Notes: generated by a model not told the origin, from the sequence alone. DNA of 34,695 nt from Candidatus Heimdallarchaeota archaeon (GCA_021399345.1 JAAFKI010000009.1:1-34695), one strand, 5' to 3'. Numbered from the stretch's first letter, positions 21,801 to 32,948 are shown. Numbers and translations are program-made.

Positions 21801-22496
21801 TTTATCACCTGGTACTTTTACTTGGAAAGAGGAATAAGGCGTGATTATCGCTAGTTGTCTAAAGTATTCTCTAACGCTGTTCTTGGCGAGATTCCATGCA
21901 CCAGTAAATGTAATTGAAATTTCAGTTCCTGCTTCTTCAAGATAACCCTCATCCCCTGGCAGAAATTCTCGCTGCTCCATAATTATGGGTTCATTTTTCT
22001 CAAGATTGATCATTAAATGCATTTCATGTGTTATATCATCCATGAAATATCTTGATCTAATTTTAGCTGGGAGGTCAACAGAAGACATGGAATACAATAA
22101 ACACATCTTGGCTCCTAAACCAAAACGTCCTCGTGTCTGAATAACACCATACTTAGTTCCTGTGAGAACTCTACCGAAAAGGTCAGCAATAAGATGTCCA
22201 GGAACACCTGTACCATTATCTGTACAGGTAAGTTGTAAGAAGTCTAGGTGTTTCTCTAATTTCTTATATTGTTTAACATCAAGAAGTTCATTTATTTCTC
22301 TACTAGATAATTTTCTTAAATCAATTGAGATGTTAGGATTTATCCCTCTGTTTTCTGCAGCATCTAAACCATTTTCAACTAATTCGCGTATGCTAGTAAA
22401 CACAGCTCGCATAGAATTTCCAAAGCCAGCAATTGCTCTATTTTCGTTGAAAAAAGAAGCGGCAGACATCTTCTTAGTAACTGAATTTTCAGACAC
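9882..22496 (-). CDS. top6B: Giant DNA topoisomerase VI subunit B (core aa ~1-550) with ~3500 aa of tandem HhH-like repeats and a basic tail
   Basis: RELVENGLDA, DNGTG, QTRGRFGLGAK, GTEI, KIHPYG, RYANRIPL, WNEYGL, STKIPFPETSKE are all intact. One uninterrupted 12.6-kb ORF; GTG start preceded by GAGGT. Confidence 0.95.
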   Translation of the reverse strand: MSENSVTKKMSAASFFNENRAIAGFGNSMRAVFTSIRELVENGLDAAENRGINPNISIDLRKLSSREINELLDVKQYKKLEKHLDFLQLTCTDNGTGVPGHLIADLFGRVLTGTKYGVIQTRGRFGLGAKMCLLYSMSSVDLPAKIRSRYFMDDITHEMHLMINLEKNEPIIMEQREFLPGDEGYLEEAGTEISITFTGAWNLAKNSVREYFRQLAIITPYSSFQVKVPGDKEGEFDEFIFESVVDDMPPPPQVVKIHPYGCDITQFKAELSANNDKKLKDFLANQFMGVTKEIAEDFFQLLEIDPNKHPNELTSKEIRRIVHEGFVKAYQEAKEVKRKRDRVFQFDPPKGTALSPLGAGRLKRGLEKELNPKFAEAISRPPKAYSGHPFVVEAAIGYGGGVTEASQQRGTNVQDNKIIYRYANRIPLIFGAGNDVISHVVSSIRWNEYGLTRQSDPLAVTVSVVSTKIPFPETSKEYISIVPEIEEEIRLALQQLGRRLKTFLGRAKRRRREHARLSRFVKSAPIIVENLSQIIEDEGIGMADFRFEKNRIASSLAHGSSKKAKLFMPLGQRLFGLNIWCSTSTQNILKNKNILSVSDFLLTPNKVLMTILTLDEKSIYNIKLRTIFELDKEGLSPQFDSKIFVSRAVEKRFDKNSISLKDALNRRWIQNSYHYLATESAKLKTVSGLLEKLFENKKDELINQLLLQNRKNDGSKTSPKSKFVADSLTAKGQLKIEHLFPPFKVFKKLSNEILAADLTVEEFIYQTQLPDGINYQQEITAIFIDYLKEVFIKMSNKFPTFKATNITKMTPDWTDGYTKNAFHRRKIRTIESFINTSTDDLVQVKEMERILYSTYLKLLVKQSPSINLSAFEFIESKELKNDEALMIKSLAAKGVKSLAQLLYFAAEEIQDKKLIDLAELLMKETKFTILFSLQISEKGHNSSHIKIIPSNVETELHRNQIFNSSIFLSYSSPQLRKMGLKKREVDQIKKTLGTPLPKWLGHEEILKECGIIVLEELFFNSAESYLLSAENKKKYFEIANILRTPIIFSFPQLRKSSYLLKEVGINCLGRFLIWPDEELASILGYKIEEIEAMKDVVSLAEIEINRKTFGKPLSQLNSLFPRLISYFGETNETLQDLFYLYPSEKVSLSQGLWKKIDHLSKLSQLEIIELAQLFSKNSKKLGEVKEALLRLNVRNIITIRQFLDLIPEIIESELSTASHRKIILELYHMIKNRDIEETSDLNKQVLLISEYDEFERALSLPISRIGNLTLQEYEDLRTENIIAMHQLFEYSTKELGSILNKTEDGINNIFKDFKIEQKGTSFFIKGERSRLKSLISFEYEESERFSTHEIESLILAGYDSVDKIFYLSHPLTFSASLVHWNVIDKFRKLLRSPLTLVAWEKVVKKEVQDEETETIKEIDEIQISTLSTDQLNTLRNSGISRIVDLLIVKKDILESVLGISPKEAALMQRNLRISDTGTDLSELDIFKPHIVDILEEYNLVTIEDIYFSTSEREWTVSELPWKIIKSFKQVLNLPLKYISDMLDKELIEILKKVEITTLLGFMLISPENLMEKTGIPDERFENIKRGLALSDILGTFTLPSYYIPSLTFEQTEILREIKIPTIADFILTSNQKLTKLLEIPSKDLNALKNSLTAQTIQASYEDRGIFAAETKLFDKLEQRQLSRDSIIQFERFQTIQEIYYVVEEEFYPSNPDLWSKVSAVKKVLDLPLRIFTEISEYSLEVWEHNNIKYVHQLLFLPDEEIKDPVLYRSISTYSSKMLEMRAFHYFAKLPSSVYNSSFFRNIVQDFEEKTLSDVVTDKKVISLLLSKDKHSLTDNYNLTLIRALLELPIRITPFFNRIKKIRREEYKNTKIGDVFDIDLVEHSALAPFYNKLQEVDSLNNMVADLAVPISSMGLPRELALKLSKSSINTLIDFFSTPVKTISEITGIPQRYIREIQDNLDYSLIQSFKKAQTHDIVASVLITDKHIESLKKIGILDIESLYYSAETQNVSSVLPAENYSKVKEILSGSIRFVGFLASDEIKRLEFYDINSVIDLALLNKKELFHITQNPIYKEFHALDILSLDEVAEKRAETALSLDLLPSIEEDYLEKIKQLGINSIQDFNSRMSELRDSHPHLVKLDVFRDVQLYLSSVAFLGLNNQQVQKLVYSGVGDILSFITEDVSTIAIILDMEETEVRKYLDKINSENLLEEIEKKGVKLTDFPVLSKSTVNYLLKSDRDLVQDVYSQYYQAFTIANVSDNVLRDFLNSCNVSIYRIKELSPETKIKLSQMGILRVIDFLCTNDSELKNALGGKFSKETNEVRRGNFTLIKGTELLLNEPILNILRDLYFEPSKKTVEDLFGFVPEHLLQFTETERIEKITNISFVEQLVSFLSLSTLSLSYFDIETKAVLWNMGIKHVIELISTNIQDLKDIPREAVRAIREFQRSFNLSVRMSETFSPYIEQKLSLPKEMRGKFKTYGLTTALFLFDFMHHPLFELTNKEKNLLSTATSNLFKPVTWLVDQSDLQLEDLTVFRDKKVNNIISALLMLDDDKQSTDTRYFSEQFHSKFKEVVNENIFKIKPPEWSLKLTDLNLIKDQKLLRKLKTAKVLYLDELLSLDSLIIENHSVYEELRSILLSLKNFSVASIDGLSVSNVKKLKQKGVRNVFQFLFMPVSYLSQFMNVSKEKIEEIKLNIDLEVLESNAKLVGLDIQLIGKLNDKIKRVLMEHGCVSLTQAAHLQINELPLTEEEMQSVRELVSILQTPITLIGKVLKMSRKNIEQLVDEKILTYTDLLEIPQEKWPSSLKKLISNQQTDPTFLIKQLYGIQKFGMSVEELGLAKSVTASMLQTGLSTVDHLLYVPDTYLTSKGQIKLTDLLELRDRLGRSVSILPNLTNETIEYCLSNNFQIIEDLLIYFKDHPKKIRDEITPSLKAIKTISEVGFVKSLSETEQDLQKRGYYSYTSLLTSANFKTDKELFSKFAPYLLANLRFLDLESTEYNRLKRSGIFTISDLLVVSPKTIATQTKMSISKITTTIDSIIYEELKQKIDANIESVDREFFLLSNTDKDFLKSIGIYSISDLNEYSAYSWLISENKLKKIKDKIETILETSILYYPNITKLTISEIEKQYYDKGIFSIQDLLSSVDEVETKTIITFLQEFASVDEQLDKEYITAAQLFSETELITLSKSIPKKKIKQLNEFLSELYKNYEKISEPNKKILRTLKHPLSALSKLTTSDVKNLNKNNNFLIIDILIKSQTYWNEFSAKPTGSKVLALLSTLTLSKIKSQIRKRPDISSLGVFDAETIKEISEYYQTIDEILYAIESEDYGVSRTLINKVQRTLTTPVKLIMVPKISLKVWKKLHSSNDTVTDLLKLSDKDLSSFLSIPQSDIPKIRSSFNVENMIREPSLKSNIIFSQQDIEKLNNIGYKTYDQLVENLYSDKAIPKTIKPKMDFIQTFDIKNYEPKLDESLTILELLFLINSTENLAITKKQKELIVSTADFFFSRGTQLCTILKIDPSAKKSHCPEMSIEYLLLLKEYNAQMFDEIWRKLHDKIKPTIELLFSSLNRSPVILTKLTADSIHQVSSTKYKKISELLLLSRKQLYDQISDKNVQRNVRNLSLSLLQELSQNMTSFPSSLLTTTEVNTLNNSNIKSIEEALVFLEQSKKGDSKVLTICNKISKVMETDLTVLPSIIQDKRKSEEVTRLKLSNVYDLLTFCKTTQKVESKALCSDILSVLKFDKITQSVSNEQSRLSSFFKTTEYLQFLKRKKIRTFGSLINYVKITSAQNLEQEFEQILSTLRAPLSIFTFDQTLLKKLRDLNIHQVLDLVLPTDINKQIKSSLTEKQQTSMQTIIKQLNFISINQLLSSLYPISKVSFIDENSRKQLIRTGYSTISHLNISDEILASSSKIRSSILVKINRILDSPVYYLTDMIRDNPGSVFAMYEKGIFNLWGVYAYNTKDLAKIIKITDRQVKSYLSTLTDQSIKLAQKDQILVKDTLPYLEASAVVSLQNSGFESLQEIMFPSEDKKKSPVLKLQQVSDLKKHLNKTINEIDVDAEVVKQIRQLGITTFREFAVYPSSTLDGKTNLSYIAIKRIKSKLPLKKIKTIKAKPATKPPTKKPTKKPTKKPTKKPAKKAPAKKPATAKPVAKAIPKTTTMKPPVTKMTPKKAPTKASTKQTTLLDLATRSGEKKTSSKTSKTSSTNSKGGDK
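10116..10163 (-). repeat. 12-bp perfect tandem repeat x4 encoding (TKKP)4 in the top6B tail
   Basis: aggcttcttagt x4 on the + strand. Confidence 0.95.
10215..20740 (-). repeat. Protein-level array of ~60-aa HhH-like repeats inside top6B
   Basis: About 40 recognisable L-x-x-x-(G/N)-(I/Y/F)-x-(T/S)-h-x-(D/E)-h-h units, e.g. LRNSGISRIVDLL, LKKIGILDIESLYY, LKRSGIFTISDLL, LQNSGFESLQEIMF, IRQLGITTFREF. Confidence 0.8.
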
Positions 22497-22657: not shown

Positions 22658-25600
22658 CTAATTGTCTGGAATCTCTTCTTTTGGTTTAAATTTGTTAAGA
22701 ACTACTGAAGTAATGACAAAACCTGTAGCAACTAAAAACATAGAACCAAAAGCACCAATTGTACGGGAAGCATCTGCTCCTTTTATTCTATCCAAGAATT
22801 GTTCTTTAATAGCGTCATAAAATATTTCTGTTGCAAAATGAACATCTTCTTGCCAAAGGATTGTTGCCATACCTCCTGGTAATGCAGGAAATGTTGTATG
22901 CCAAGTTGGATATCGATGAATTATAGGAAGGCTTTGAACAGGATCATCATATTTGGAACTATTAAGGAGACTAAAAGCTTCAATAAAATTGGTTGCAAAC
23001 GTATTATATTGTATTCTGTCTGTTCTTCCAACAACACTACCTGTTACTGGCTCGACCATCATTGTTTGCATGTGAAAAGGATCTCGTCCTACTTGTCCTG
23101 GTAACGAGAATGTTAAGAACAAATCTTTTGGTTCCAAATCAATATCATACAAACTATTCCATTTTCCAGCTTGAATAAAGCTTGCATTTATGAAGTTTGC
23201 ATCATGCATCCAGTACAAATCATAAGTATCCAGTTGACGATAGGGTGATCCTGATCGTGCAGAATAAACGTGTACAGTTTCATCAAAGAATAATGCTGAA
23301 TCTGTTAGAGAAGTATAAGCAAATGGCCTTAGGAAGAACTGATTCCATTGTAGTCTCAATCCTTTTTCTATATCAGGTTGGACAGCAAATGAGTCATAAG
23401 TATAGTTAAATAACTCTATATTGGCATCTACAGCATCTGGACCCAAATCCCATAAACCAAATTGAACTTTACTATCTCTTTGCCAGCATTCAACAAATGT
23501 ATGAAGTTCATCCTTTTCAACAAAATCAAAATTGCTAGTAAGATAGTTAAACTCCAGATGAACAAGACCCTGTTCAAAATCTGCTAAATAGATATCATTG
23601 CCATGAGCGTAGATACCAAAAGCTGTTCCGAGATGGTCAGTTCCATTGAATCTGTAATCTTCTGAAGGATTGGCTTTAGTTGAGATGTCAACAACCATGA
23701 AACCATCGCTACCTTGAGTTAAATAGGCTGTGAATCCATCTTCAGTTACGTACATGTCTTTGAAAGGTTCATCTCCAGGATAAGCAGCAAATTGACTGAT
23801 TTCTGTTAAGGTTTCGTTTGATTCTATATGGAAAATCAGTAATCCTTCTATTGCGTCTAAGACATAAAGATAATTTCCTACAACTGATACGTCTCTTACA
23901 TCTTTTAGATTTGTGAAGTTTGCTGAATCATAATGCCACAATAGTTCTATATCATTGACATATTCTATGTCTATCACATCAATTCCATCAGTTCCTAAAG
24001 CAACAAAAGCTTCAGCATTTGAAAAGTCAAGTCTTGCATCAACAGCAATAGCTATACCAGAAGTATTTAGGAAGGTATAAGCAGAACTAACAGATTTGGT
24101 ATCACCACTAAGAGAGGCAATTTTTAATCCATAATTACCATTAGCTATTACTAAAGCATCGAAAGGGGTAACACCAAGAGGATAAAATACGCTAGCAACA
24201 CCTCTCATATCATTATTTCCAGAATTCCATTGAGTAATTTGATCAATTGAGTATGGATTTGTTGCATTGAGAATTTCTAAACCTGCAGTTCCCTCTAATG
24301 CATAAATATACCCATCAATTACAGTATAATCATAGATTTGACCATCATAATCTCCATACTGACCGATTGCTCTGAAGAGTGAATCAGTAGTATTTACTAT
24401 TTTGATATCTGTTCCATCTTCTAGAACATAAGCAAGATTATCTTCCATAACTACATCCATTGATTTAGAGTAGTGAAAATAGGGTAAATTGGCTATTCCA
24501 ATTATAGAACCCATCTCTTCAATGTTATTCAGACCTAATTTTTCTGCATAATAAATGTCTTTGTCCAAATCTATACTCGATGAAGATAATGTTTCATTTA
24601 TAAGTAATGGAAATTTCATACCGTTTAACAATGGGTCCTCAATACCAACAACCCATTCCATTGCAGTTCTATCGCAGACATATGATATTTTGTTATCGTA
24701 TAACCAATCAAGTGATGGCCTTCCTAGAAGATAATTCATATATGCTGCAAAAGATTTTGCTGATTCAATTTCTGTTGGTGTATCAATATCGTAAATGTCA
24801 GCTAATAGCTGTACAACATCTACAGTTAGGTCATCAGGTTCAGTATAATCTAATCCTCTTACTAAATCCAAGAAGAATTTAGCGGAACCTGTGTCTCCAG
24901 TTAATACTGAATAATCTTTACCTCCATAGGTTGCGTTATAGAGTATTTTATAGCTTGTTGCTTGATTGATATCTAAATCTTGAAAAGCTGGACGAACACT
25001 TATCCAATTGTGAGGTAGATATGTTCCTGTATCCACTAAACCTTCACTTTCAGCATAAGCTCTATTCAGAACTGCATAAGCAATTTCACTGTAAGTGTAT
25101 GTTGAGTTGAGAAGATCAATTTCAGAACCTAGGAGATAAGAGGCTATATAAGCTTGAAAACCATATTCTGTTCCATTTCCAAAATTTTCAATATAATAAG
25201 GCCACATGTAATTGAAATTCAAAACTGTCTCATTTCCAAATAATGTGGAAGCTGTAGAATTATAGATATAATGTCTTCTACTAGCAAATACAACATAATC
25301 TTCTTCCTCATTGTATTCAAACACCGTTTTATTAATAACTATATCAAATACAAGTTCTCCTTGCACATAATAATAAGAAATTGGTGTATTATAATCCAAG
25401 TAACCCTCACGATCACTCACATTATAGAATTCGATAAATGCTTGATCATAAAATCTTGACTCATTGTCACTTCTATCAGTAAACATCCAGTCAGAATATG
25501 AACCAGTTCCATCATTAGGTTTTAGATCATCTTCATTTAACTGTCCAAATTCGTTTAATTCAGCATTAATCTCGTTAATTATATTTATAGAATTAATTGG

Positions 25601-25684
25601 CAGAACTACTCCAATCACAACAGCAGAACTAAAGGTAACTGTCAAAATCAAAGCGCCTATTAATGTTCGAAGTCTTTTTTCCAT
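22658..25684 (-). CDS. CD36/LIMP-2 (scavenger receptor class B)-like two-TM membrane protein with inserted LVIVD beta-propeller
   Basis: N- and C-terminal TM helices. CD36-like blocks in the expected order: SYSDW..FIEFYNV, RTAMEWVVGIEDPLL, FFLRPF, HMQTMMVEPVTG..DRIQYN, ILWQE. LVIVD repeats (YIYALEGTAGLEILNATNP, YLYVLDAIEGLLIF, AYLTQGSDGFMVVDISTKANP). Start is ATG 25684 (GAGGA upstream) or 25711. Confidence 0.75.
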   Translation of the reverse strand: MEKRLRTLIGALILTVTFSSAVVIGVVLPINSINIINEINAELNEFGQLNEDDLKPNDGTGSYSDWMFTDRSDNESRFYDQAFIEFYNVSDREGYLDYNTPISYYYVQGELVFDIVINKTVFEYNEEEDYVVFASRRHYIYNSTASTLFGNETVLNFNYMWPYYIENFGNGTEYGFQAYIASYLLGSEIDLLNSTYTYSEIAYAVLNRAYAESEGLVDTGTYLPHNWISVRPAFQDLDINQATSYKILYNATYGGKDYSVLTGDTGSAKFFLDLVRGLDYTEPDDLTVDVVQLLADIYDIDTPTEIESAKSFAAYMNYLLGRPSLDWLYDNKISYVCDRTAMEWVVGIEDPLLNGMKFPLLINETLSSSSIDLDKDIYYAEKLGLNNIEEMGSIIGIANLPYFHYSKSMDVVMEDNLAYVLEDGTDIKIVNTTDSLFRAIGQYGDYDGQIYDYTVIDGYIYALEGTAGLEILNATNPYSIDQITQWNSGNNDMRGVASVFYPLGVTPFDALVIANGNYGLKIASLSGDTKSVSSAYTFLNTSGIAIAVDARLDFSNAEAFVALGTDGIDVIDIEYVNDIELLWHYDSANFTNLKDVRDVSVVGNYLYVLDAIEGLLIFHIESNETLTEISQFAAYPGDEPFKDMYVTEDGFTAYLTQGSDGFMVVDISTKANPSEDYRFNGTDHLGTAFGIYAHGNDIYLADFEQGLVHLEFNYLTSNFDFVEKDELHTFVECWQRDSKVQFGLWDLGPDAVDANIELFNYTYDSFAVQPDIEKGLRLQWNQFFLRPFAYTSLTDSALFFDETVHVYSARSGSPYRQLDTYDLYWMHDANFINASFIQAGKWNSLYDIDLEPKDLFLTFSLPGQVGRDPFHMQTMMVEPVTGSVVGRTDRIQYNTFATNFIEAFSLLNSSKYDDPVQSLPIIHRYPTWHTTFPALPGGMATILWQEDVHFATEIFYDAIKEQFLDRIKGADASRTIGAFGSMFLVATGFVITSVVLNKFKPKEEIPDN

Positions 25685-25920
25685 TGTGAATCCTCTTTTC
25701 TCACTATACATTGTTTCGTCTCACGAGAGATATTTAAAGTTAATGACGACAGCATGAACTTTAAGAGACTAATTTAAGTTGTTTTAAGATAGAGCTATTA
25801 TATATTTTACGCATTGGAAGAAATTGGTAAAGTTTGGTAAGAAGAGGTTCCTATAAATCGCTCTAAATTGCATAAATTTAATCCTGGAACTGAAAAGAAT
25901 CCAAAAAAGAACTGAAAAAA

Positions 25921-27171
25921 TCACTTCAGTTTCTCAACAACAGGTAATGAAATCACCCATTTAGATGCATCGAAAACCGCACCTAAAAATGTGGAATCTT
26001 CAGACATAATTCTATTACTTAGTTCATCATACAAGCTAATCGATAATTTTCCTAGATTCTCAAGACGTTTTAGTATTTCTCTTGGTAAAATATTGTAAGC
26101 TAAAATGCCTCTTATAATTGCTCCATTTTCTCGTTTTTGCGGAAATGAGAAGATTACATCTGAGTTACTGAAACTCTCTCTAATCCTTCTATAACTTGCG
26201 GTTGTTAATCCAGTAGGACCAGGTTGAATAAGGAAAAATCCTCTTGTAGCTCTAGATTTTAATGGAAAACTATCACCTTCATGAATTTTTGTTAGGATAT
26301 TGGATAATTCAGGATTATTGTCATAGACATCAAAACTAATGAGTCTGCAAATGCCTCTGGCATCTTGGAAAATTCTCAGGAAATTACTTTGATCAACTCG
26401 GTAAAATTCTGAAGTCTGTTGTAGACCTATAATAAAATCTGCGATTAGATTTGCTTCTCGTCGGGCAAAAGTAGCTAGTATTTCTTCTGAATCTTTGTTT
26501 TGATTATTCTTGATGAGTTTTTCATCATCAACTAGAACATAGGGAAGAGGATTCTTCTGAGATTTTCTTGAGAGACCATAGAGAAATGTCATAATTGAAA
26601 ATTCGTCTGTGATATTTTTTTCAGCAATAGGCAAGTGTACAAACATAACGGGCTGTTTACCTGAAGAAAGGATATACAAAGCTATTTCTTCAAAAAGACT
26701 CAAAACAAACGCATTATTTTCTGGAAAAAGAAAGACTAATGATTTATTACTAATTAATTTATCAATATAAGAATTAATTCTTTCTTCATTTGCTGTATAC
26801 CACTTCTTACCTTGAAAAAAAGTCATTTCTTCTTCGGGGAGAGAAGGAAGTTCAATTGAAGGAAGCTTACTATAGATATCTGAATTTCCAGAAGGAGTTG
26901 TAATAACAAGTGAAGAAGGAAATTGATTATTGAATCTTTCCTTCATATTCTCAAGAATGTTTAACCCATAATTTTCACCAAAAACTAATCCAATTGTTGA
27001 TTCTTTTATATCTCCTTCAATAAATAGAGTATCAGAAATTTCACATCCATTCAGATCTTTATCAGCTATAATATTAGAATGGTTAAATCTGTATAAGCCA
27101 TTGAATAAGACAGGATGTTCATCAGCTGATTTTTTCTTACCTTTACTAAAAATAGAACGAATCCATGACAT
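25921..27171 (-). CDS. Tubulin/FtsZ-superfamily paralog lacking the GTP-binding signature (pseudo-GTPase)
   Basis: Colinear similarity to 30152..31291: GKQPVMFVHLP/GEPPTVIFVLP; PYVLVDDEKLIK/PIILFDNEKLLK; QDARGICRLISFD/RDARGLGIIISLD; RATRGF/RAKLGY; IIRGIL/TIRGVL. No GGGTG. Start is probably ATG 27171 (MSWIRSIF). Confidence 0.75.
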   Translation of the reverse strand: MSWIRSIFSKGKKKSADEHPVLFNGLYRFNHSNIIADKDLNGCEISDTLFIEGDIKESTIGLVFGENYGLNILENMKERFNNQFPSSLVITTPSGNSDIYSKLPSIELPSLPEEEMTFFQGKKWYTANEERINSYIDKLISNKSLVFLFPENNAFVLSLFEEIALYILSSGKQPVMFVHLPIAEKNITDEFSIMTFLYGLSRKSQKNPLPYVLVDDEKLIKNNQNKDSEEILATFARREANLIADFIIGLQQTSEFYRVDQSNFLRIFQDARGICRLISFDVYDNNPELSNILTKIHEGDSFPLKSRATRGFFLIQPGPTGLTTASYRRIRESFSNSDVIFSFPQKRENGAIIRGILAYNILPREILKRLENLGKLSISLYDELSNRIMSEDSTFLGAVFDASKWVISLPVVEKLK

Positions 27172-27238
27172 TTTTGTTTCAATTATATTTAGTTGCAAGG
27201 ATTTTTAAGACTTTTCAGCTAGCTACATGAAAAAGAGA

Positions 27239-28663
27239 TTATTTCTCAGTTGATAATGTTTCTTCAACATTTAACAACTGAATTGTATGGGTTTTTCCTG
27301 AGATTCCTACCATTGATCCAGCTACCAATACAACATTGTCTTTTGCATCAATGTACTTATCTTCATGAAGTTCCTTAATAACATTGAATACTAGCTCATC
27401 GTAATTATCTTCATACTTATGAAAAATAGGTTTAACGCCCCAAAATAACCTTGTTACACGTTTAGTAAATTGATTATGAGAAACGGCATAAATAGGTAGA
27501 TTTTCCCTATTTCTAGAAACCATACTTGCTGTATACCCAGTTTGAGTAAGAGCAATAATTGCCTTTACTGACATTCTCTTAGCCAACCTAACTGCAGAAA
27601 TACCAATTTCATTACCAATATTAACCTCAGTATCAACTACTAAAGGACGATCTAAAGCTAGGTTTTTCTCAGCTTCTAGAATAATATCATTCATTATTTT
27701 CATAACTAGGAGAGGATGTCTTCCTGTTGCTGTTTCAGCTGATAACATTAGAGCATCGGCTCCATCAAAAACTGCATGAGCAACATCACTTGCTTCAGCT
27801 CTTGTAGGAATGGATTCTTTGGTCATGGATTCTAACATCTGTGTTGCAACAATAACTGGTTTAGCTAAACTCATACCTAGTTGGATCAATTGTTTTTGCA
27901 AGATAGGAACCCTAGCAGGACCTACTTCAATAGCTAAATCTCCTCGTGCAACCATCAAACCATTACTAAAGGAAGCGATTTCATTTATTGAATCTAGAGA
28001 ATCCTGATGTTCGATTTTTGCAATGAGCTGAATGTCTTCGTTAGTTTTTGATTCAACAATTTCTTTTACTCTTTTAAGATCATCAACGCTTCGTACAAAT
28101 GAGATAAATAGAAAATCAGTTTCCCAATCACAAGCTTTTTCGATATCTACTATATCTTTCTTAGTTGGTACTCTTATAGATAAATCTGCATCTGGAATAT
28201 TTACTCCTTTTCTAGATGAAATTTCACCCCCATCTATCACCTTACAAACTATTTCATCATCTGTAATTGATTCAGCGTTCAATCTAACTAGACCATCGTT
28301 TATGAAAAGAGAAGTATTAACTTTTAATTCATTAGTTAATTTGGGATAGTTGATTGGAATAAGATTATCTTTTCCAATTATGTCCCTAGTAGTAAGCTTA
28401 ACAATTTCATCTCTTTTGAGAATTTTTACCTCCTCTAACATCCCTAATCTAATTTTAGGACCACTAATGTCAATACCTATTGCAAGATCATTGCATAGAT
28501 TTCTGAGATTATTGAAGGTTTCTTCATGACTTTGATGATTTCCATGGGAAAAATTCAATCGAGCTAAATCCATTCCATTGTCAATCATTTTTTTCAGAAT
28601 ATTCTCAGAACTAGATGAAGGACCTATTGTACAAACTATCTTTGTTAATCTCAATATTATCAA
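27239..28663 (-). CDS. pyk: Pyruvate kinase
   Basis: TKIVCTIGP, ARLNFSHG, GPKIR, IAKIE, MVARGDL, ATQMLESM, PTRAEASDV, DGADALMLSAETA. Confidence 0.99.
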   Translation of the reverse strand: MIILRLTKIVCTIGPSSSSENILKKMIDNGMDLARLNFSHGNHQSHEETFNNLRNLCNDLAIGIDISGPKIRLGMLEEVKILKRDEIVKLTTRDIIGKDNLIPINYPKLTNELKVNTSLFINDGLVRLNAESITDDEIVCKVIDGGEISSRKGVNIPDADLSIRVPTKKDIVDIEKACDWETDFLFISFVRSVDDLKRVKEIVESKTNEDIQLIAKIEHQDSLDSINEIASFSNGLMVARGDLAIEVGPARVPILQKQLIQLGMSLAKPVIVATQMLESMTKESIPTRAEASDVAHAVFDGADALMLSAETATGRHPLLVMKIMNDIILEAEKNLALDRPLVVDTEVNIGNEIGISAVRLAKRMSVKAIIALTQTGYTASMVSRNRENLPIYAVSHNQFTKRVTRLFWGVKPIFHKYEDNYDELVFNVIKELHEDKYIDAKDNVVLVAGSMVGISGKTHTIQLLNVEETLSTEK

Positions 28664-28714
28664 GAAAACATGGAAGTACTAGATTAAAATTCTTACTAAC
28701 CCCCTAACTCTTTC

Positions 28715-28729
28715 GAAACGATTAAAAGC
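28715..28729 (+). promoter_or_regulatory. Putative BRE/TATA for a leaderless transcript starting near 28754
   Basis: gaaacgattaaaagc about 25-30 nt upstream of ATG 28754. Confidence 0.3.
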
Positions 28730-28753
28730 AAGCACAGACTCTATGAAATTGTT

Positions 28754-30151
28754 ATGGAATCTAATCCTCAAAAACCTACTTCATTTAAAGCAAAAACTAT
28801 TGTTCCTGATGATATTGAAGTTCCCTCGTTTGATTTTGAGAATTTATTATATGAACACTACAAAAAATATCCACAAACAGCTGCATTGGTTGAAAAACCC
28901 ATTTACCTAGAGGCTCTAATGAATCCTTTCAAAAGATTCTATCTTGTGCCTATTGCTCTTCTCAAGCTAAAATTAAATACAATTTTATCTTTAAAATGGA
29001 AGGATTTTCTAAAACTGTGGATTTTTATTGTGTTGATGTATATTCCATCATTGTTATTTGTAATGCTACCATTTCAAACGAATGGAAGGTTATTGTTTGA
29101 CATTATTTTCAATGTTGGAACTCCAATACTTATAGCAATTCTGTTATCACTATTCTACATGAAATATACTCATAATGGTTTTCTTGGGTTAACTCTTGCT
29201 AAGAGAGTAGAATGGTTAGAGAAACCGGTTAGAGAATATTATACTAAATATTATGATAGACATATTCCTAAGAATCCAATTATAATATTAGCTTCTTTAG
29301 CAACTGGAATTGGTATTCAAATTCCTATGTTAAAAGTCGCTTTTGGTAATAATCCTGTAACTTCAGTATTTGGTAATGTGGGGGCATCTATTCTTAATCC
29401 AGCATATTTTAGCAGCAATGCAGCAGAATTTTTTGGTATTCTTACATGTATATTCAGTCCTTTTCTATACTATATTTTCTTTGTAGCAGTCTATTTCATG
29501 TTCTTTAATACACGAATTTATTCCAAAATTCTTAAACCAATCAAACAAAAAATGGATGTTTACAGAAAGGAATATGGCACTCTTTTAATGAGAGAAAACT
29601 ACGATATAATTTGGTCTTTGGGAGATAAATGGTCAAGAGGAAGAACGATTAGTCAACTAGAAAATATACCTACAGCAGGTATACTATCTGCTCTGATCAT
29701 TATCATAGCTATGTTTATGGGTAATATAAATCAGCTAATGTACTCATCTCCTCCTCCTGGAATGCCTACACATAACGTAAATTTCATGTTTCTAAAAGCT
29801 GGACAACCCGCAACAATTCTAGTTGTAACTATTTCTGCTTTAATTGCTGTACTGATGGTTTTCTACGTAATCCTTCCATTATGGGCTTTCAGTATCAAAG
29901 CTAGAAAATTCAAAATTAAAGCACTCATGGAATTAGACAATTATATTTTCGCAAATGTGGTAGAATTCGGAGAAAAATATTCAGAAGAAGCAAAGAGAGA
30001 AAATGTTACAATGCTGCAACTAAGAGAATATGTAGCTTCAATGAGAATATTTCCAATATCAACGCAAAAAATATTCAAAACAATCATGATTATTGCTATA
30101 TGGGTGATAAACATACTCAAAATTATTAGGTCAGTAGGAGGAGGAATCTAA
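28754..30151 (+). CDS. Multi-pass membrane protein of unknown function
   Basis: About 7 hydrophobic segments. Its stop codon directly abuts the next ATG (TAA ATG). Confidence 0.85.
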   Translation: MESNPQKPTSFKAKTIVPDDIEVPSFDFENLLYEHYKKYPQTAALVEKPIYLEALMNPFKRFYLVPIALLKLKLNTILSLKWKDFLKLWIFIVLMYIPSLLFVMLPFQTNGRLLFDIIFNVGTPILIAILLSLFYMKYTHNGFLGLTLAKRVEWLEKPVREYYTKYYDRHIPKNPIIILASLATGIGIQIPMLKVAFGNNPVTSVFGNVGASILNPAYFSSNAAEFFGILTCIFSPFLYYIFFVAVYFMFFNTRIYSKILKPIKQKMDVYRKEYGTLLMRENYDIIWSLGDKWSRGRTISQLENIPTAGILSALIIIIAMFMGNINQLMYSSPPPGMPTHNVNFMFLKAGQPATILVVTISALIAVLMVFYVILPLWAFSIKARKFKIKALMELDNYIFANVVEFGEKYSEEAKRENVTMLQLREYVASMRIFPISTQKIFKTIMIIAIWVINILKIIRSVGGGI

Positions 30152-31291
30152 ATGTCTTGGCTTAAAAGAAAAATCTTCCGAAAGAAGATATCTATTTCAG
30201 TTATAGGTGTTGGTAACGCAGGATGCAAAATAGGTGAAAAACTTATTCAAGAGTTACGTGAAAGTAAAATCACCATAAAATCATTAGCGGTGAATCTAGC
30301 TGATAACTTTGAACCAAAAATCAGCAATTTTTCAGACAACTTCTGGTTTGGAGCAAAAGACTATGTTTCCTCAGATTATGATTTTGAGAAAGCATACAAA
30401 CAATTGAAAGCTAAAGAGATGGAGATGAAATCTAAACTAGAGAAAGTTGTCTTTTACAAACGTGATGAAAGAAAAGATGAAGACGATTTAGCTCTTCACC
30501 TAATAATAGGTAGTGGTGGCGGAACTGGTAGTGCTGGAACCATTATTGTTAGCAAGTTACTAGCTGATATAACAGGGGAACCACCAACAGTTATCTTCGT
30601 ATTACCGGAAAAAGATGAACCTTCACTTGTTCAATATAATTCTGCAAGAGCTCTACATTACCTCGGATTTGACACACTTGGTCCTCATTGTCCAATCATA
30701 TTATTTGACAATGAAAAACTCTTGAAACTCTACGAAGATGAGAGTATAGAAATAGTTCTAGAAAAAAGCAATGAGTTGCTAGCTGAAACCTTCACTACAA
30801 CTGTTCTTTCGGCTCTTCAAGAAAGCACTCATGAGGAATTCTACGCAGATCTAAATGATTTCTTCAAATCATTCTCTAGAGATGCTAGAGGTTTAGGGAT
30901 AATTATTTCTCTCGATAAGGAATTTGAAACTTTAGAAAAGGCTCAAAATACAAGATTTTCTGATCTCTTCTTTAATGAATTAGATGAAAGTTCAAGTTTA
31001 ACAGCTGATGTGACTAGGGCTAAATTAGGTTATTTAGCAATAACTATGCCAACAACTTATCAGTCTACATTTGAAACAAGAAAAATAGTCAAAAAATTCG
31101 AAAAAGGAGACATAAAAGTTTCTTTAAATCCCATAGATGAACCAATTTTAACGATTAGAGGAGTGCTCACTGGAATCCACCCCGATTACGTGGAAAGGTT
31201 CTGGGAAGTGCTTGAGAAGGGAAGAGATACTAGAAAGGAAATCATTGAGGCTGAAACAAAGATAAAAGAAACTTATATCGAAACCGAGTAG
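30152..31291 (+). CDS. Tubulin/FtsZ-superfamily GTPase (divergent, CetZ-like rather than canonical FtsZ)
   Basis: T1 VIGVGNAGCKIG, T2 AVNLA, T4 GSGGGTGSAG, T5 LPEKDE, T6 FDNEKL, T7-like ADLNDF. Confidence 0.9.
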   Translation: MSWLKRKIFRKKISISVIGVGNAGCKIGEKLIQELRESKITIKSLAVNLADNFEPKISNFSDNFWFGAKDYVSSDYDFEKAYKQLKAKEMEMKSKLEKVVFYKRDERKDEDDLALHLIIGSGGGTGSAGTIIVSKLLADITGEPPTVIFVLPEKDEPSLVQYNSARALHYLGFDTLGPHCPIILFDNEKLLKLYEDESIEIVLEKSNELLAETFTTTVLSALQESTHEEFYADLNDFFKSFSRDARGLGIIISLDKEFETLEKAQNTRFSDLFFNELDESSSLTADVTRAKLGYLAITMPTTYQSTFETRKIVKKFEKGDIKVSLNPIDEPILTIRGVLTGIHPDYVERFWEVLEKGRDTRKEIIEAETKIKETYIETE

Positions 31292-31331: not shown

Positions 31332-32330
31332 ATGAATATAAATATACATAGCCAGAGTTTCATGAACATAATGAGTGTGAATAGTGAATGCCCCATTTGT
31401 TTTAGAAAAATACGTTCAACCTCAAAATTTTGCAAGTATTGTGGGGGTTCTCTTAAGAAATGTCCTGAATGTCAAAATTTGAATAAAGCAGAAGATCTTT
31501 TTTGTGCTGAATGCGGTTATGACATCAAAGACGTTGAAGTACCAGTCTCAACTCCTTCGCAAGTTGCTGGAAGAACTGGTGTTTTTCAACCGATCATTCA
31601 AAGAAGTGCTGGACAAGAGGATGACGATTCCCAACCTAAACTTATACTTTGGCCTCCTTTGCCAGCTCAGCAACCAAGCACAGCTGCTTATCCTAGACCA
31701 TTCCCTCCTGCTCAAAGAGCAATCCAGTTCACTGAAGTTGAACCAACTTATGAACCTGAAAAATTAGAGTATAAATATAAAAAAGTCAAGTTTATAGGTT
31801 TTCTTGAAGGATCTATTCCCAGTTCAAGTGCTTTAGCAGCTACTCTTGAAGCTTTTGGAATCGCTTTAATTCTAATTGCATTTGGTGTAGGTGTTGTTGC
31901 AATAGGATTAACCACTTTTAAGTCAGAGATTTTTGCAGTAATTATGGGTATAATTGGAAGTATTTTCGTCTTTTCGGCTCCTATGTTTGGTTTATATTTT
32001 ATTAGCTCAAGATGGCTTTACAGAGCATTTGAAATAAAAAGACCAGTTCGATTGAGCACAATAATCATGAATTATTCTCTAGGAGTACTAGTATTTGCTC
32101 TACTGGGTTTGATGTTAGCCCCAGTTTTCCTGTTAGGGGGAGCTATTGGTTGGACTCTTTCAGTAATAGGAGGAGTTGTAACAGTTATGGGGTTAATTGT
32201 TGTTCCTTTAAAAGCTTATTTGGCAGATTTGGTTTATGTTAAAGCAGCTGTAAATCTGAAGAACAAAGAAAAAGATAATGATTCAGAAGAAGAATCTGAT
32301 GAAGAAAAATCTGATGAAGAAAAAGATTAA
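31332..32330 (+). CDS. Double zinc-ribbon protein with Pro-rich linker, ~4 TM helices and acidic tail
   Basis: CPIC..FCKYCG..CPEC..FCAECG; WPPLPAQQP..PRPFPP; hydrophobic C-terminal half; DSEEESDEEKSDEEKD. The start may be a downstream ATG (31362 or 31371). Confidence 0.85.
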   Translation: MNINIHSQSFMNIMSVNSECPICFRKIRSTSKFCKYCGGSLKKCPECQNLNKAEDLFCAECGYDIKDVEVPVSTPSQVAGRTGVFQPIIQRSAGQEDDDSQPKLILWPPLPAQQPSTAAYPRPFPPAQRAIQFTEVEPTYEPEKLEYKYKKVKFIGFLEGSIPSSSALAATLEAFGIALILIAFGVGVVAIGLTTFKSEIFAVIMGIIGSIFVFSAPMFGLYFISSRWLYRAFEIKRPVRLSTIIMNYSLGVLVFALLGLMLAPVFLLGGAIGWTLSVIGGVVTVMGLIVVPLKAYLADLVYVKAAVNLKNKEKDNDSEEESDEEKSDEEKD

Positions 32331-32366: not shown

Positions 32367-32948
32367 TTAAGTCAGTTTTTTAATTAATTTTACCTTAGTA
32401 GCTGAATCATCTGTCTCGACAATATCACTGTTTCGCAAATCATGAATTGATCTAATAATAGCTGCAGGAGAGAATCCAGTGGTTTTAACTAGCTCATCCC
32501 TTGTCCATTCTTCCTTGTTGACGCCTTGGAGTAACAAGAGAATTTTAGTGTGGGGATTAGCAGCAAAGACCTTTTCAAAAAGAACGGTATAGATAGCTAG
32601 AAGATCTTGTATATCAATATCTTCAGCTCTTTCTTGGGCCATTTCTTCATATATCTCACGCAACCCTTTCATTTGTTCTTCAACGCTCTCAAACTTGATT
32701 TTATATTGATTGGCTTCTTTCAAAGCATCTTCAATAGAATTATCCTTTGTCTCATATTCTTTTTTGAGTTTAGAGAATTTTTCTTCTATATCCTTAAGCT
32801 TAGACTTCAAATCAGAGTTTTCTTTAATTATGTCATCAGAATAACTTGAAAGCTTTGTTAATACTGTTGGAAGTTCTGCGAATTTATCTTTAATTTGTGA
32901 GTAGAGTTCAATGAATTCTTCTAAGGGTGTTTTAGTTGTTCCTTCCAT
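32367..32948 (-). CDS. Coiled-coil protein with C-terminal winged helix-turn-helix
   Basis: Heptad-rich aa ~35-110; PHTKILLLL..WTRDELVKTTGFSPAAIIRSIHDLRNSDIVE. Confidence 0.75.
   Translation of the reverse strand: MEGTTKTPLEEFIELYSQIKDKFAELPTVLTKLSSYSDDIIKENSDLKSKLKDIEEKFSKLKKEYETKDNSIEDALKEANQYKIKFESVEEQMKGLREIYEEMAQERAEDIDIQDLLAIYTVLFEKVFAANPHTKILLLLQGVNKEEWTRDELVKTTGFSPAAIIRSIHDLRNSDIVETDDSATKVKLIKKLT

What the first reader, a model, noticed from the sequence alone, without database searches (positions are those of the whole stretch)
25921..31291. Paralogous tubulin/FtsZ-superfamily pair: one intact GTPase and one pseudo-GTPase in divergent operons
Seen: 30152..31291 has T1/T4/T6/T7-like motifs. 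25921..27171 aligns with it over the C-terminal ~250 aa, but GSGGGTGSAG is replaced by about PENNAFVLS, T1 by FGENYG, and T7 ADLND by VDQSN. They flank pyk on opposite strands. Known: alpha/beta tubulin and BtubA/B are heteropolymers of paralogs with unequal catalytic roles. Inference: a two-component filament system in which the dead paralog acts as co-polymer, nucleator or cap. The degenerate copy would probably be annotated as hypothetical.
Basis: partly seen in the sequence, partly recalled or inferred. Interest (0 to 1): 0.8.

Follow-up and report, generated by a model that had tools for sequence, protein, structure and literature searches.

The report
Tubulin-like gene pair, one copy inactivated
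A Heimdall-group Asgard archaeon keeps two anciently duplicated tubulin/FtsZ-like genes next to a gene for an insect-chemoreceptor-like membrane protein; one copy has lost every GTP-binding and catalytic motif but keeps the fold and is still under selection, so it probably works as a non-enzymatic partner, though contact between the proteins is untested.

Summary
30152-31291(+) encodes a 379-aa tubulin/FtsZ-family protein ('a') with intact T1, T4 and T7 motifs. 25921-27171(-) encodes a 416-aa paralog with no Pfam match. Its predicted structure is a full tubulin/FtsZ fold (pLDDT 89.6; Z 28 to CetZ), yet T1, T4 and the T7 acid are all replaced.

In sister families of the same order an intact ortholog ('b', with GGAG, GGTG and DLNE motifs) sits in a three-gene operon b-membrane protein-a. 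In Heimdallarchaeaceae b was uncoupled, degenerated along a long stem branch, and now always sits upstream of a family-specific CD36-like gene. It remains an open frame in 28 of 30 family genomes, with dN/dS 0.20-0.36. Family f3 shows the reverse case: 'a' lost T4 and b kept it.

The membrane protein (28754-30151) models as a 7TM ion-channel fold like insect gustatory and odorant receptors (Z 13.8). It occurs only in genomes that carry the pair (46 of 400 Asgard genomes).

A heteromeric role for the dead copy (partner or cap) is inferred, not shown. The scan reached a similar reading earlier on another genome (e1-5718992). I found no paper describing the pair.

The parts
25921..27171 (-). Degenerate tubulin/FtsZ-fold paralog ('dead b', 416 aa). 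It is the ortholog of the intact 'b' GTPase found in sister families.
   Evidence: No Pfam or NCBIfam hit. AF2 pLDDT 89.6, pTM 0.90. Foldseek hits TubZ, FtsZ and CetZ at E 1e-15 to 1e-13. VIA Z 28.4 to CetZ 3zid, 27.6 to TubZ. hhalign to intact b gives E 9e-31 over 388 columns. dN/dS 0.20-0.36.
26965..26982 (-). T1-equivalent loop FGENYG, replacing the glycine-rich GxGGAG
   Evidence: Alignments; translation
26698..26724 (-). T4-equivalent PENNAFVLS, replacing the tubulin signature GxGGTGxG. E151, N152 and F155 are invariant within the dead family.
26383..26397 (-). T7-equivalent VDQSN. The first Asp is kept and the catalytic Asp/Glu is replaced by a conserved Asn.
27022..27120 (-). Conserved N-terminal extension (aa 18-50), shared with intact b and absent from 'a'. 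It is among the best-conserved parts of the dead protein.
   Evidence: Invariant residues P20 to L49. pLDDT 96-97. Regional identity 0.48. Aligned to b.
27130..27171 (-). N-terminal basic amphipathic peptide MSWIRSIFSKGKKK
   Evidence: similar peptides occur in the b and a families
27239..28663 (-). Pyruvate kinase. A frequent neighbour, but a variable one that is probably not part of the module.
   Evidence: Pfam PK and PK_C. Present near the module in f4 as well, but absent between the genes in G010, G018, G020, G002 and G003.
28754..30151 (+). Seven-TM membrane protein (465 aa) with a 7TMIC fold like insect gustatory and odorant receptors. It is always encoded directly upstream of 'a'.
   Evidence: Seven hydrophobic segments. 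AF2 pLDDT 67.7, pTM 0.65, with long helices 216-274 and 352-405 and a split last helix. The VIA top 20 hits are all insect Gr/Or, Z 13.8-9.6, and the next hit is Z 7.0. Found in 46/400 Asgard genomes, exactly those that carry a/b.
30152..31291 (+). Intact tubulin/FtsZ-superfamily GTPase 'a' (379 aa)
   Evidence: PF00091 E 1.9e-10, above the cut-off. T1, T4 and T7 present. Profile hits to CetZ 4b46 at 7e-5 and OdinTubulin at 4e-3. dN/dS 0.065-0.093.
30132..30154 (+). Junction between the membrane-protein gene and 'a': GGAGGAGGA, then TAA directly followed by ATG
   Evidence: sequence read directly
30152..30187 (+). N-terminal basic peptide MSWLKRKIFRKK of 'a', the most conserved region of that protein (83% mean identity across genera)
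22658..25711 (-). 1017-aa CD36-like/propeller membrane protein. It lies directly downstream of the dead gene, co-oriented, about 210 bp away.
Evidence: Adjacent in every f1 locus examined. Present in 29/30 f1 genomes and in none of the f2-f3 genomes; the only f4 hits are weak partial ones in G036.

Best explanation
The window carries a lineage-specific, membrane-associated cytoskeletal module of one order of Heimdallarchaeia. The module has three parts: two anciently duplicated tubulin/FtsZ-superfamily proteins, 'a' and 'b', and a seven-TM channel-like protein encoded between them.

Shown:
- a, b and the dead copy form one clade, separate from FtsZ, from bona fide Asgard tubulins and from two other Heimdall tubulin-like families.
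- In sister families b-7TM-a is a tight co-oriented operon, and both proteins keep their nucleotide motifs.
- In Heimdallarchaeaceae, b was uncoupled from the operon, placed upstream of a family-specific CD36-like gene, and lost T1, T4 and the T7 acid. It kept the two-domain fold and stays under purifying selection.
- In family f3 the opposite partner ('a') lost T4.

Inferred:
- a and b act together, as alpha/beta-type partners, so that one nucleotide site is enough.
- The dead b keeps a conserved T7-face (D-x-S-N-F, H8 and the C-terminal domain). This face could dock on the GTP-bearing face of 'a' without triggering hydrolysis.
- Its own filled-in pocket cannot offer a nucleotide interface to the next subunit.
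- The result would be either a stable a-b unit with a locked GTP or a filament-end cap or regulator.
- The shared N-terminal basic peptides place both proteins at the membrane or on the cytoplasmic anchor domain of the 7TM protein.
For: Fold.

Homology chain: dead to b, E 9e-31 over the full length; a to b, E 1.5e-37; dead to a, E 2e-12. Intact intermediates were found in the search of 1.84 billion proteins and match Pfam Tubulin.

Motif states.

Tree: (a+b+dead) has support 98*, a 97*, dead 100* with a stem of 1.67 substitutions per site, and b+dead 86. The AU test disfavours a dead+a_f1 clade (p 0.049).

Distribution:
- dead: 28/30 of f1.
- a: 29/30 of f1, plus all of f2-f4.
- 7TM protein: 46/400 Asgard genomes, the same set.

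Operon structure in f4.

Linkage in f1: the 20 same-contig pairs lie 1.45-6.2 kb apart, and 3 more are joined through a split 7TM gene.

Selection: dN/dS is 0.20-0.36 for dead against 0.065-0.093 for a. No stop codon was seen except one TAA in the fragmented MAG G012.

Translational coupling of 7TM and a.

Reciprocal degeneration in f3.

The dead gene never occurs without a, whereas a occurs without dead in G008 and G013.
Against: - The dead gene is no longer in the a operon. Its invariable neighbour is the CD36-like gene, which may be its real partner.
- Two congeneric genomes deleted it cleanly and kept a plus the 7TM protein, so it is dispensable.
- It evolves about 3-4 times faster than a.
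- Regional conservation does not single out one face. N-domain identity is 0.35 and T7+C-domain 0.46, the same ratio as in a.
- The b+dead node has only 86% SH-aLRT support on a quick tree, and the AU p value is borderline.
- The AF2 alignment included intact relatives, which may flatter the model.
- The 7TM model has only moderate confidence.
Confidence: 0.55

Rival explanations
1. The dead paralog has been repurposed away from the tubulin system. It serves as a nucleotide-independent scaffold or adaptor for the CD36-like/propeller membrane protein encoded directly downstream, and it no longer interacts with 'a'.
For: The co-oriented dead-then-CD36-like adjacency holds in every Heimdallarchaeaceae locus examined, across the four of its five genera whose loci could be read. 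The CD36-like gene is specific to the family in which b degenerated: 29/30 against 0 in f2-f3. Uncoupling from the b-7TM-a operon coincides with the motif loss. New conserved motifs (ENNAF, the N-terminal extension) suggest a new binding surface.
Against: The dead gene still lies within 6.2 kb of 7TM-a wherever the contigs allow a check. The gap to the CD36-like gene is about 180-240 bp, not a tight operon junction. In G008 and G013 the CD36-like gene persists without the dead gene. T7, H8 and the C-terminal domain, the part still alignable to a, remain the best-conserved globular region.
Confidence: 0.25
2. The degenerate copy is a decaying relic with no function, drifting after it lost its GTPase role.
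For: It evolves about 3-4 times faster than a: 30-43% against 59-74% identity across genera, with dN/dS 0.2-0.36. It was cleanly lost in 2 of 30 genomes. It matches no Pfam family.
Against: The frame is open at full length in 5 genera even though synonymous sites are saturated (dS > 1.5), and dN/dS is well below 1. 78 columns are invariant among members only 38-40% identical, including replacement motifs in the former pocket. The fold prediction is very confident.
Confidence: 0.05
3. The pair arose by a recent duplication of 'a' inside Heimdallarchaeaceae, and one copy then decayed. This is the simple reading of 'paralogous pair in divergent operons'.
For: The two genes are neighbours. Both begin with MSW plus a basic peptide. 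Direct similarity is confined to the C-terminal half.
Against: The dead profile matches intact b over its full length, including the b-specific N-terminal extension, at E 9e-31, against E 2e-12 over half its length to a. The tree places dead with b, not with a_f1. Forcing a dead+a_f1 clade costs 20.8 lnL, AU p 0.049. Sister families have b in the syntenic module.
Confidence: 0.05

Closest known systems
CetZ (archaeal tubulin-like cell-shape proteins; PDB 3zid, 4b45, 4b46)
   Same: Best structural neighbour of the dead-copy model: Z 28.4 over 316 residues to 3zid, and 27.2 to 4b45. Best PDB sequence match of the 'a' profile: 4b46 at E 7e-5. One 'a' ortholog (Heimdallarchaeota AB_125) is annotated 'Tubulin-like protein CetZ'. 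Santana-Molina et al. 2023 (PMC9871819) describe CetZ-like 'Asg.Tub' groups in Heimdallarchaeia and Lokiarchaeia with unknown neighbours.
   Different: Similarity is marginal: E 1e-4 to 1e-9, about equal to the matches to TubZ and FtsZ. No CetZ sequences could be placed in the tree. The genes come as an a/b pair with a 7TM gene, which is not reported for CetZ. They carry N-terminal basic peptides. Whether 'a' belongs to Asg.Tub could not be checked.
Alpha/beta-tubulin, BtubA/B and Asgard AtubA/B heterodimers
   Same: Adjacent paralogous genes of the superfamily with unequal catalytic roles. The dead copy's T7 lacks the catalytic acid, as beta-tubulin's does (established knowledge: alpha E254 against beta K254). 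Structural Z is about 23 to tubulins, BtubA and AtubA/B2. AtubA/B and Heim-alpha/beta form heterodimeric mini-microtubules (PMC13394414, PMC13371889).
   Different: The a/b/dead clade is separate from the true tubulins of G037. In tubulin both subunits bind GTP, whereas here one subunit has no nucleotide signature at all. Heterodimer formation is untested. The third gene is a channel-like membrane protein, not a BtubC-type factor.
TubZ (plasmid and phage segregation tubulin-like GTPase; PDB 4ei7, 2xka)
   Same: Top Foldseek hit of the dead-copy model (E 2.8e-15), with Z 27.6. Best PDB sequence hit of the intact-b profile: 5.9e-11 over residues 60-386. The alignment reaches into the N-terminal extension (model residues 42-43 onward).
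   Different: No TubR, tubC or plasmid context. The genes are chromosomal, family-wide and vertically inherited.
ARC3 of plant chloroplasts (a protein with a degenerate FtsZ-like domain that regulates FtsZ)
   Same: It is a precedent for a non-catalytic FtsZ-fold protein that acts on the polymer of its active relative. [quoted passage not shown]
   Different: ARC3 has additional middle and MORN domains, is eukaryotic and of independent origin. The analogy is functional only and was not tested here.
7TMIC superfamily (insect gustatory and odorant receptors; 'Heimdallarchaeota 7TMICs' of Himmel, Moi and Benton 2023)
   Same: The model of the membrane protein aligns over about 300 residues to Gr9, Gr43a, Orco and ORs at Z 13.8-9.6. 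These are the top 20 hits, and the next hit is Z 7.0. It has seven hydrophobic segments, long cytoplasmic extensions of helices 4 and 6, and a split last helix. The paper reports eukaryote-like 7TMICs in Heimdallarchaeota.
   Different: No sequence-level match to any Pfam family. Model confidence is moderate (pLDDT 67.7). Identity with the published Heimdall 7TMIC set was not checked. The paper mentions neither tubulin, FtsZ nor operons, so the linkage to tubulin-like genes appears to be unreported.

Membership tests
Tubulin/FtsZ superfamily - dead copy (25921-27171) | Two-domain tubulin/FtsZ fold (Rossmann-like N-domain, helix H7, C-terminal domain) | tested here: met
   AF2 pLDDT 89.6, pTM 0.90. 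Foldseek E 1e-15 to 1e-13 to TubZ, FtsZ and CetZ over 317-361 columns. Z 28.4-22.6 to more than 50 entries.
Tubulin/FtsZ superfamily - dead copy (25921-27171) | Glycine-rich nucleotide motifs: T1 (GGGxG-type) and T4 signature (GGGTGS/TG) | tested here: not met
   FGENYG and PENNAFVLS stand at the aligned positions. All dead-family members examined lack T4. There is no PF00091 hit.
Tubulin/FtsZ superfamily - dead copy (25921-27171) | Catalytic acidic residue in the T7 loop | tested here: not met
   VDQSN: Asn stands at the position of the Asp of a and the Glu of b. Of the 14 dead-family members displayed, 12 have Asn, one Ser and one Asp (the G006 lineage).
Tubulin/FtsZ superfamily - intact copy (30152-31291) | Pfam PF00091 above the gathering score, with T1, T4 and T7 present | tested here: met
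   41.8 bits against a cut-off of 33. GVGNAGC, GSGGGTGSAG and ADLND are present. GTP binding and hydrolysis were not assayed.
FtsZ proper | NCBIfam TIGR00065 equivalog score; grouping with FtsZ in a tree | tested here: not met
   26.5 bits against a cut-off of 295.2. The a/b/dead clade is separated from all Heimdall FtsZ at 100*. The genome has its own canonical FtsZ on contig C84.
Bona fide tubulin (alpha/beta, Asgard AtubA/B) | Grouping with tubulins; strong PF00091 score | tested here: not met
   The tandem tubulins of G037 score E 1e-58 and 1e-56, against 2e-10 for a, and fall outside the a/b/dead clade, which has support 98*. The tubulin row is a long branch, so its exact position is unsure.
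CetZ | Membership of the CetZ clade in a superfamily phylogeny | tested here: inconclusive
   Only profile and structure similarity could be measured. No CetZ sequence with a usable reference was available for the tree.
Alpha/beta-type obligate heteromer | Paralogs encoded together and co-inherited | tested here: met
   Operon b-7TM-a in f3, f4 and one f5 genome. Linked in f1. The genome sets are the same.
Alpha/beta-type obligate heteromer | Physical a-b interface and co-assembly | not testable with these tools
   Only single-chain prediction is offered. Indirect support comes from reciprocal loss of T4 in a (f3) against b (f1).
7TMIC superfamily - membrane protein (28754-30151) | Seven TM helices, N-terminus in and C-terminus out, long TM4-TM6, split TM7 | tested here: met
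   Seven hydrophobic segments. Basic residues are concentrated in the N-terminus and in loops 132-174, 247-304 and 374-439 (sequence). Model helices 216-274 and 352-405, then 411-428 plus 437-462. Z 13.8 to Gr9 and 13.7 to Gr43a. The model is of moderate confidence, and helical bundles can reach similar Z by chance.

The most novel reading that the evidence does not exclude
The a/b pair is an obligate heteromer that assembles on the cytoplasmic anchor domain of a eukaryote-like 7TM ion channel, so that a tubulin-like polymer positions or gates a channel. Within one archaeal order the pair has twice independently evolved a catalytically silent subunit: b in Heimdallarchaeaceae and a in family f3. 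This would be a separate re-run, in archaea held to be among the closest relatives of eukaryotes, of the division of labour seen in alpha/beta-tubulin.
Probability: 0.22. Interest if true: 0.85.

Novelty: new variant of a known kind. Interest (0 to 1): 0.68.

Why it matters
Tubulin-superfamily polymers built from unequal paralogs (alpha/beta-tubulin, BtubA/B, AtubA/B) are central to ideas about how microtubules arose. This is a separate paired lineage of the superfamily, in archaea held to be among the closest relatives of eukaryotes.

Three natural states of the pair can be compared: both subunits intact (f4), b silent (f1) and a silent (f3). That makes the evolution of catalytic asymmetry directly testable with recombinant proteins.

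The module also gives the eukaryote-like Heimdall 7TM channel-like proteins a conserved genomic context for the first time, namely two cytoskeletal GTPase-fold genes. It also links the silent subunit to an archaeal CD36-like membrane protein. Either link would give a starting point for the cell biology of membrane-cytoskeleton coupling in Asgard archaea.

Tried and rejected
Synteny was obtained through the genome search and the fetch from genomes instead.
- Pfam and NCBIfam on the dead copy and on the membrane protein gave nothing.
- A PDB sequence search with the dead-family profile gave nothing.
- Foldseek on the membrane-protein model gave no hit below E 0.001. Only the VIA re-alignment separated the Gr/Or hits clearly.
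- I asked whether the former nucleotide-binding domain of the dead copy is relaxed more than its T7/C-terminal half. It is not: the ratio to 'a' is 0.57 against 0.61. No interface-specific argument can be made from this.
- The hypothesis of a recent duplication of 'a' within the family is disfavoured, although the AU p value of 0.049 is borderline.
- The zinc-ribbon protein downstream of 'a' (31332-32330) is not a conserved neighbour: G010 and G007 have FAD-oxidase genes there.
- pyk is not a fixed part of the module.
- CetZ, TubZ and eukaryotic tubulin sequences could not be put in the tree because no referable sequences were available. Placement against them rests on profile and structure scores only.
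- The 'careful' bootstrap tree was not run, for lack of time on one CPU.
- Literature searches found no description of this pair or of a link between tubulin-like genes and 7TMICs. The library does not cover most subscription journals.

Full report
**What is in the window.** The window is contig C52 of a 3.27-Mb, 88.6%-complete Heimdallarchaeaceae MAG with about 33% GC. The region holds five genes, in this order:
- 22658-25711(-): a 1017-aa membrane protein.
- 25921-27171(-): a 416-aa protein, called 'dead b' here.
- 27239-28663(-): pyruvate kinase.
- 28754-30151(+): a 465-aa polytopic membrane protein.
- 30152-31291(+): a 379-aa protein, called 'a' here.

The membrane-protein gene ends GGAGGAGGAATCTAA, and its stop codon is followed directly by the ATG of 'a'. 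Those two genes are therefore one transcription and translation unit.

**Checking the observation.**
- 'a' matches Pfam Tubulin/FtsZ above the gathering score (E 1.9e-10). It carries GVGNAGC (T1), GSGGGTGSAG (T4) and ADLND (T7).
- The 416-aa protein matches no Pfam or NCBIfam model.
- It is nevertheless homologous to 'a': BLASTP E 1e-8 and 25% identity over 201 aa; family profiles give 97.7% probability, E 2e-12 over 190 columns.
Two corrections apply. The directly alignable part is about 200 aa, not about 250. A membrane-protein gene, as well as pyk, lies between the two genes.

**Fold of the degenerate copy.**
- AlphaFold2 on a 40-sequence alignment gave pLDDT 89.6 and pTM 0.90.
- Foldseek against the PDB returned only tubulin-superfamily chains: TubZ 4ei7 at E 2.8e-15, M. 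jannaschii FtsZ at 1.3e-14, and CetZ2 4b45 at 2.2e-14 with TM 0.76.
- VIA-align gave Z 28.4 to M. thermophila CetZ (316 residues, 3.4 A), 27.6 to TubZ, about 24 to FtsZ and about 23 to tubulins, BtubA and AtubA/B2.
- Caveat: the alignment given to AF2 contained intact relatives.

**Where the dead copy comes from.**
- A profile of the dead family was searched against 1.84 billion representative proteins and found 33 proteins.
- The weaker hits among them (E 1e-25 to 1e-10, 413-454 aa) are intact relatives. Nine of ten match Pfam Tubulin. They align end to end with the dead family and carry GxGGAG, GxGGTGVG and DLNE where the dead family has F-GENYG, xENNAFxLG and D-x-S-N.
- The named ones come from Heimdallarchaeota MAGs.
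- Profile comparisons give dead to intact b at E 9e-31 over 388 columns, including a roughly 50-residue N-terminal extension that 'a' lacks. They give a to b at E 1.5e-37.

**The tree.**
- A 64-row maximum-likelihood tree (quick search, LG+C20) groups a+b+dead at 98*. This clade is separate from the Heimdall FtsZs, from the true tubulins of G037 and from two other Heimdall tubulin-like families.
- Within the clade, 'a' is one group (97*) and b+dead the other (86).
- The dead clade has support 100* on a stem of 1.67 substitutions per site, against 0.74 for the a_f1 stem.
- Forcing dead+a_f1 together costs 20.8 log-likelihood units (AU p 0.049).
- The dead gene is therefore the Heimdallarchaeaceae ortholog of b, not a recent copy of a.

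**Distribution and gene order.** Counts below are for the 83 Heimdallarchaeia genomes held.
- The dead family is in 28 of 30 Heimdallarchaeaceae (f1).
- 'a' orthologs are in 29 of 30 f1 genomes.
- In sister families f2, f3 and f4 and in one f5 genome, intact b and a lie about 1.4 kb apart in the same orientation. The gene between them is a homolog of the window's membrane protein.
- The membrane-protein family occurs in 46 of 400 Asgard genomes. These are exactly the a/b-bearing families; none of the 317 genomes outside the class has it.
- In f1 the arrangement is dead <-> 7TM-a. In the 20 genomes where both genes lie on one contig they are 1.45-6.2 kb apart. Three more cases are joined through a 7TM gene split across contig ends.
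- pyk lies between the genes in some genomes and not in others, and it is also nearby in f4. It is treated here as a bystander.

**Is the dead copy still used?**
- Against five close relatives with unsaturated dS (0.07-0.30), its dN/dS is 0.20-0.36. That of 'a' is 0.065-0.093.
- Across genera it retains 30-43% identity, against 59-74% for a.
- The frame is open in all 5 genera. The single exception is one TAA in the fragmented MAG G012.
- 78 columns are invariant among members that are only 38-40% identical. These include the replacement motifs E151, N152 and F155, the motif D260-x-S262-N263, and the N-terminal extension.
- It is therefore a constrained protein, but one that evolves 3-4 times faster than its partner.
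- It is also dispensable. In G008 and G013 (the AB_125-like lineage) the locus reads a, 7TM | pyk, CD36-like, with no dead gene and none elsewhere in the genome.

**Reciprocal degeneration.**
- In family f3 (G033, G034) it is 'a' that lost T4 (SSDGFSTAF, SSGTFSSG). b keeps GxGxTGVGG there, although it is weakened in G034.
- In f4 both copies keep T4, and 'a' has an unusual CGDxG T1.
- Loss of nucleotide motifs in either partner, but not clearly in both, is what one expects if the two work as a unit in which one site is enough. This is the strongest comparative argument for coupled function. It remains indirect.

**The membrane protein.**
- It has seven hydrophobic segments. Basic residues are concentrated in the N-terminus and in loops 132-174, 247-304 and 374-439, which implies N-terminus in and C-terminus out.
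- The AF2 model (15 sequences, pLDDT 67.7, pTM 0.65) has very long helices at 216-274 and 352-405 and a split last helix at 411-428 and 437-462.
- Foldseek was weak (best E 0.014). VIA-align put 20 insect gustatory and odorant receptor entries on top, at Z 13.8-9.6 over about 300 aligned residues, and then dropped to Z 7.0.
- This fits the 7TMIC superfamily. Himmel, Moi and Benton (bioRxiv 10.1101/2023.08.30.555482) report eukaryote-like 7TMICs in Heimdallarchaeota. They do not mention tubulin, FtsZ or operons.
- I could not verify that this protein is in their set. Helical bundles can also reach such Z values by chance.

**A new neighbour for the dead copy.**
- In every Heimdallarchaeaceae locus examined, the dead gene is followed on the same strand, after about 180-240 bp, by the ortholog of the 1017-aa protein.
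- That protein is present in 29 of 30 f1 genomes. It is absent from f2-f3, and the only f4 hits are weak partial ones in G036.
I did not retest that and saw only an LVIVD repeat hit.
- The degeneration of b thus coincides with leaving the b-7TM-a operon and joining this gene.

**Likely mechanism.**
- Shown: the homology, fold, motif states, history, linkage and selection described above.
- Inferred:
  - a and b are alpha/beta-type partners at the membrane.
  - The dead b retains a conserved T7, H8 and C-terminal-domain face. In that face the catalytic acid is a conserved Asn, comparable to the beta-tubulin K254 position or to FtsZ D212N-type mutants (established knowledge).
  - It could therefore sit on the GTP face of 'a' without firing hydrolysis.
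  - Its own pocket is filled by bulky residues and cannot supply a nucleotide interface.
  - That predicts either a stable a-dead unit with a locked GTP or an end cap or regulator. ARC3 is a precedent for the latter, being a degenerate FtsZ-like protein that acts on FtsZ.
- The N-terminal peptides are strongly basic (net charge +6 and +5) and amphipathic: MSWLKRKIFRKK, which is 83% conserved and the best-conserved part of 'a', and MSWIRSIFSKGKKK. They may bind the membrane or the cytoplasmic domain of the 7TM protein.
- The main rival is that the dead copy now serves the CD36-like protein instead.

**Comparison with known systems.**
- The a/b clade belongs to the tubulin/FtsZ superfamily but to none of its named families as far as could be tested.
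- It is not FtsZ: TIGR00065 scores 26.5 against a cut-off of 295, and the tree separates it.
- It is not bona fide tubulin.
- Its sequence scores to CetZ, TubZ and FtsZ are similar.
- It may overlap the CetZ-like 'Asg.Tub' group of Santana-Molina et al. 2023, which is described only as having unknown neighbours.
- No paper in the library describes the pair, its dead member or the 7TMIC linkage.
- The scan itself reached the core reading earlier on another genome (e1-5718992). My results agree with it independently. They add the 7TMIC fold, the reciprocal case in f3, the CD36-like adjacency and the clean losses.

**Verdict.** The finding is a new variant of a known kind: a paired tubulin-superfamily system with a pseudo-GTPase subunit and a dedicated channel-like membrane protein. 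Interest is 0.68. It is real, conserved, unreported in the literature I could search, and it offers natural intact/silent combinations for experiment. The key claim of hetero-assembly remains untested.

Noticed in passing
window 22658-25711 (-), and loci L003-L017, L019-L025, L027, L037, L038: The 1017-aa CD36-like/propeller membrane-protein gene lies directly downstream of the dead tubulin paralog in every Heimdallarchaeaceae locus seen. It is specific to that family within the order (29/30; 0 in f2-f3).
   Followed up: partly
L086 (G008:C23:2900-4900) and L087 (G013:C114:13450-15450): Two congeneric genomes (the AB_125-like lineage, whose 'a' has an acidic C-terminal extension of 387-391 aa) have pyk directly followed by the CD36-like gene with no dead paralog. 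This is a clean loss.
   Followed up: yes
window 28754-30151 (+): The membrane protein models as a 7TMIC fold like insect gustatory and odorant receptors (Z 13.8). It probably belongs to the eukaryote-like 'Heimdallarchaeota 7TMICs' reported in 2023. Its fixed position between two tubulin-like genes appears to be unreported.
   Followed up: partly
L088 (G033) and L039 (G034), family f3: Here the 'a' paralog, not b, has lost the T4 signature. In G034 the b T4 is also weakened and 'a' has Asn at the T7 acid.
   Followed up: partly
G037:C52:9085-11038 (L058): One f4 genome carries two tandem bona fide tubulin genes (PF00091 E 1e-58 and 1e-56, 440 and 436 aa) in addition to the a/b module. These are presumably the Heimdall alpha/beta-tubulins of the recent literature.
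   Followed up: no
whole-genome PF00091 census: Genomes of f1 to f4 show a single canonical FtsZ match, including the closed genomes G006 and G007. Family f7 shows two. Family f5 has one FtsZ plus two other tubulin-like families with a GECGSN T1 motif (445-470 aa). Which FtsZ paralog was lost was not resolved.
   Followed up: no
window 31332-32330 (+) and 32367-32948 (-): Downstream of 'a' are a 332-aa protein with an N-terminal double zinc ribbon and a 193-aa coiled-coil protein with weak ATG16/crescentin-rod-like hits. The zinc-ribbon gene is not a conserved neighbour in G010 or G007.
   Followed up: partly
window 9882-22496 (-): A 4204-aa open frame. It was not examined here.
   Followed up: no
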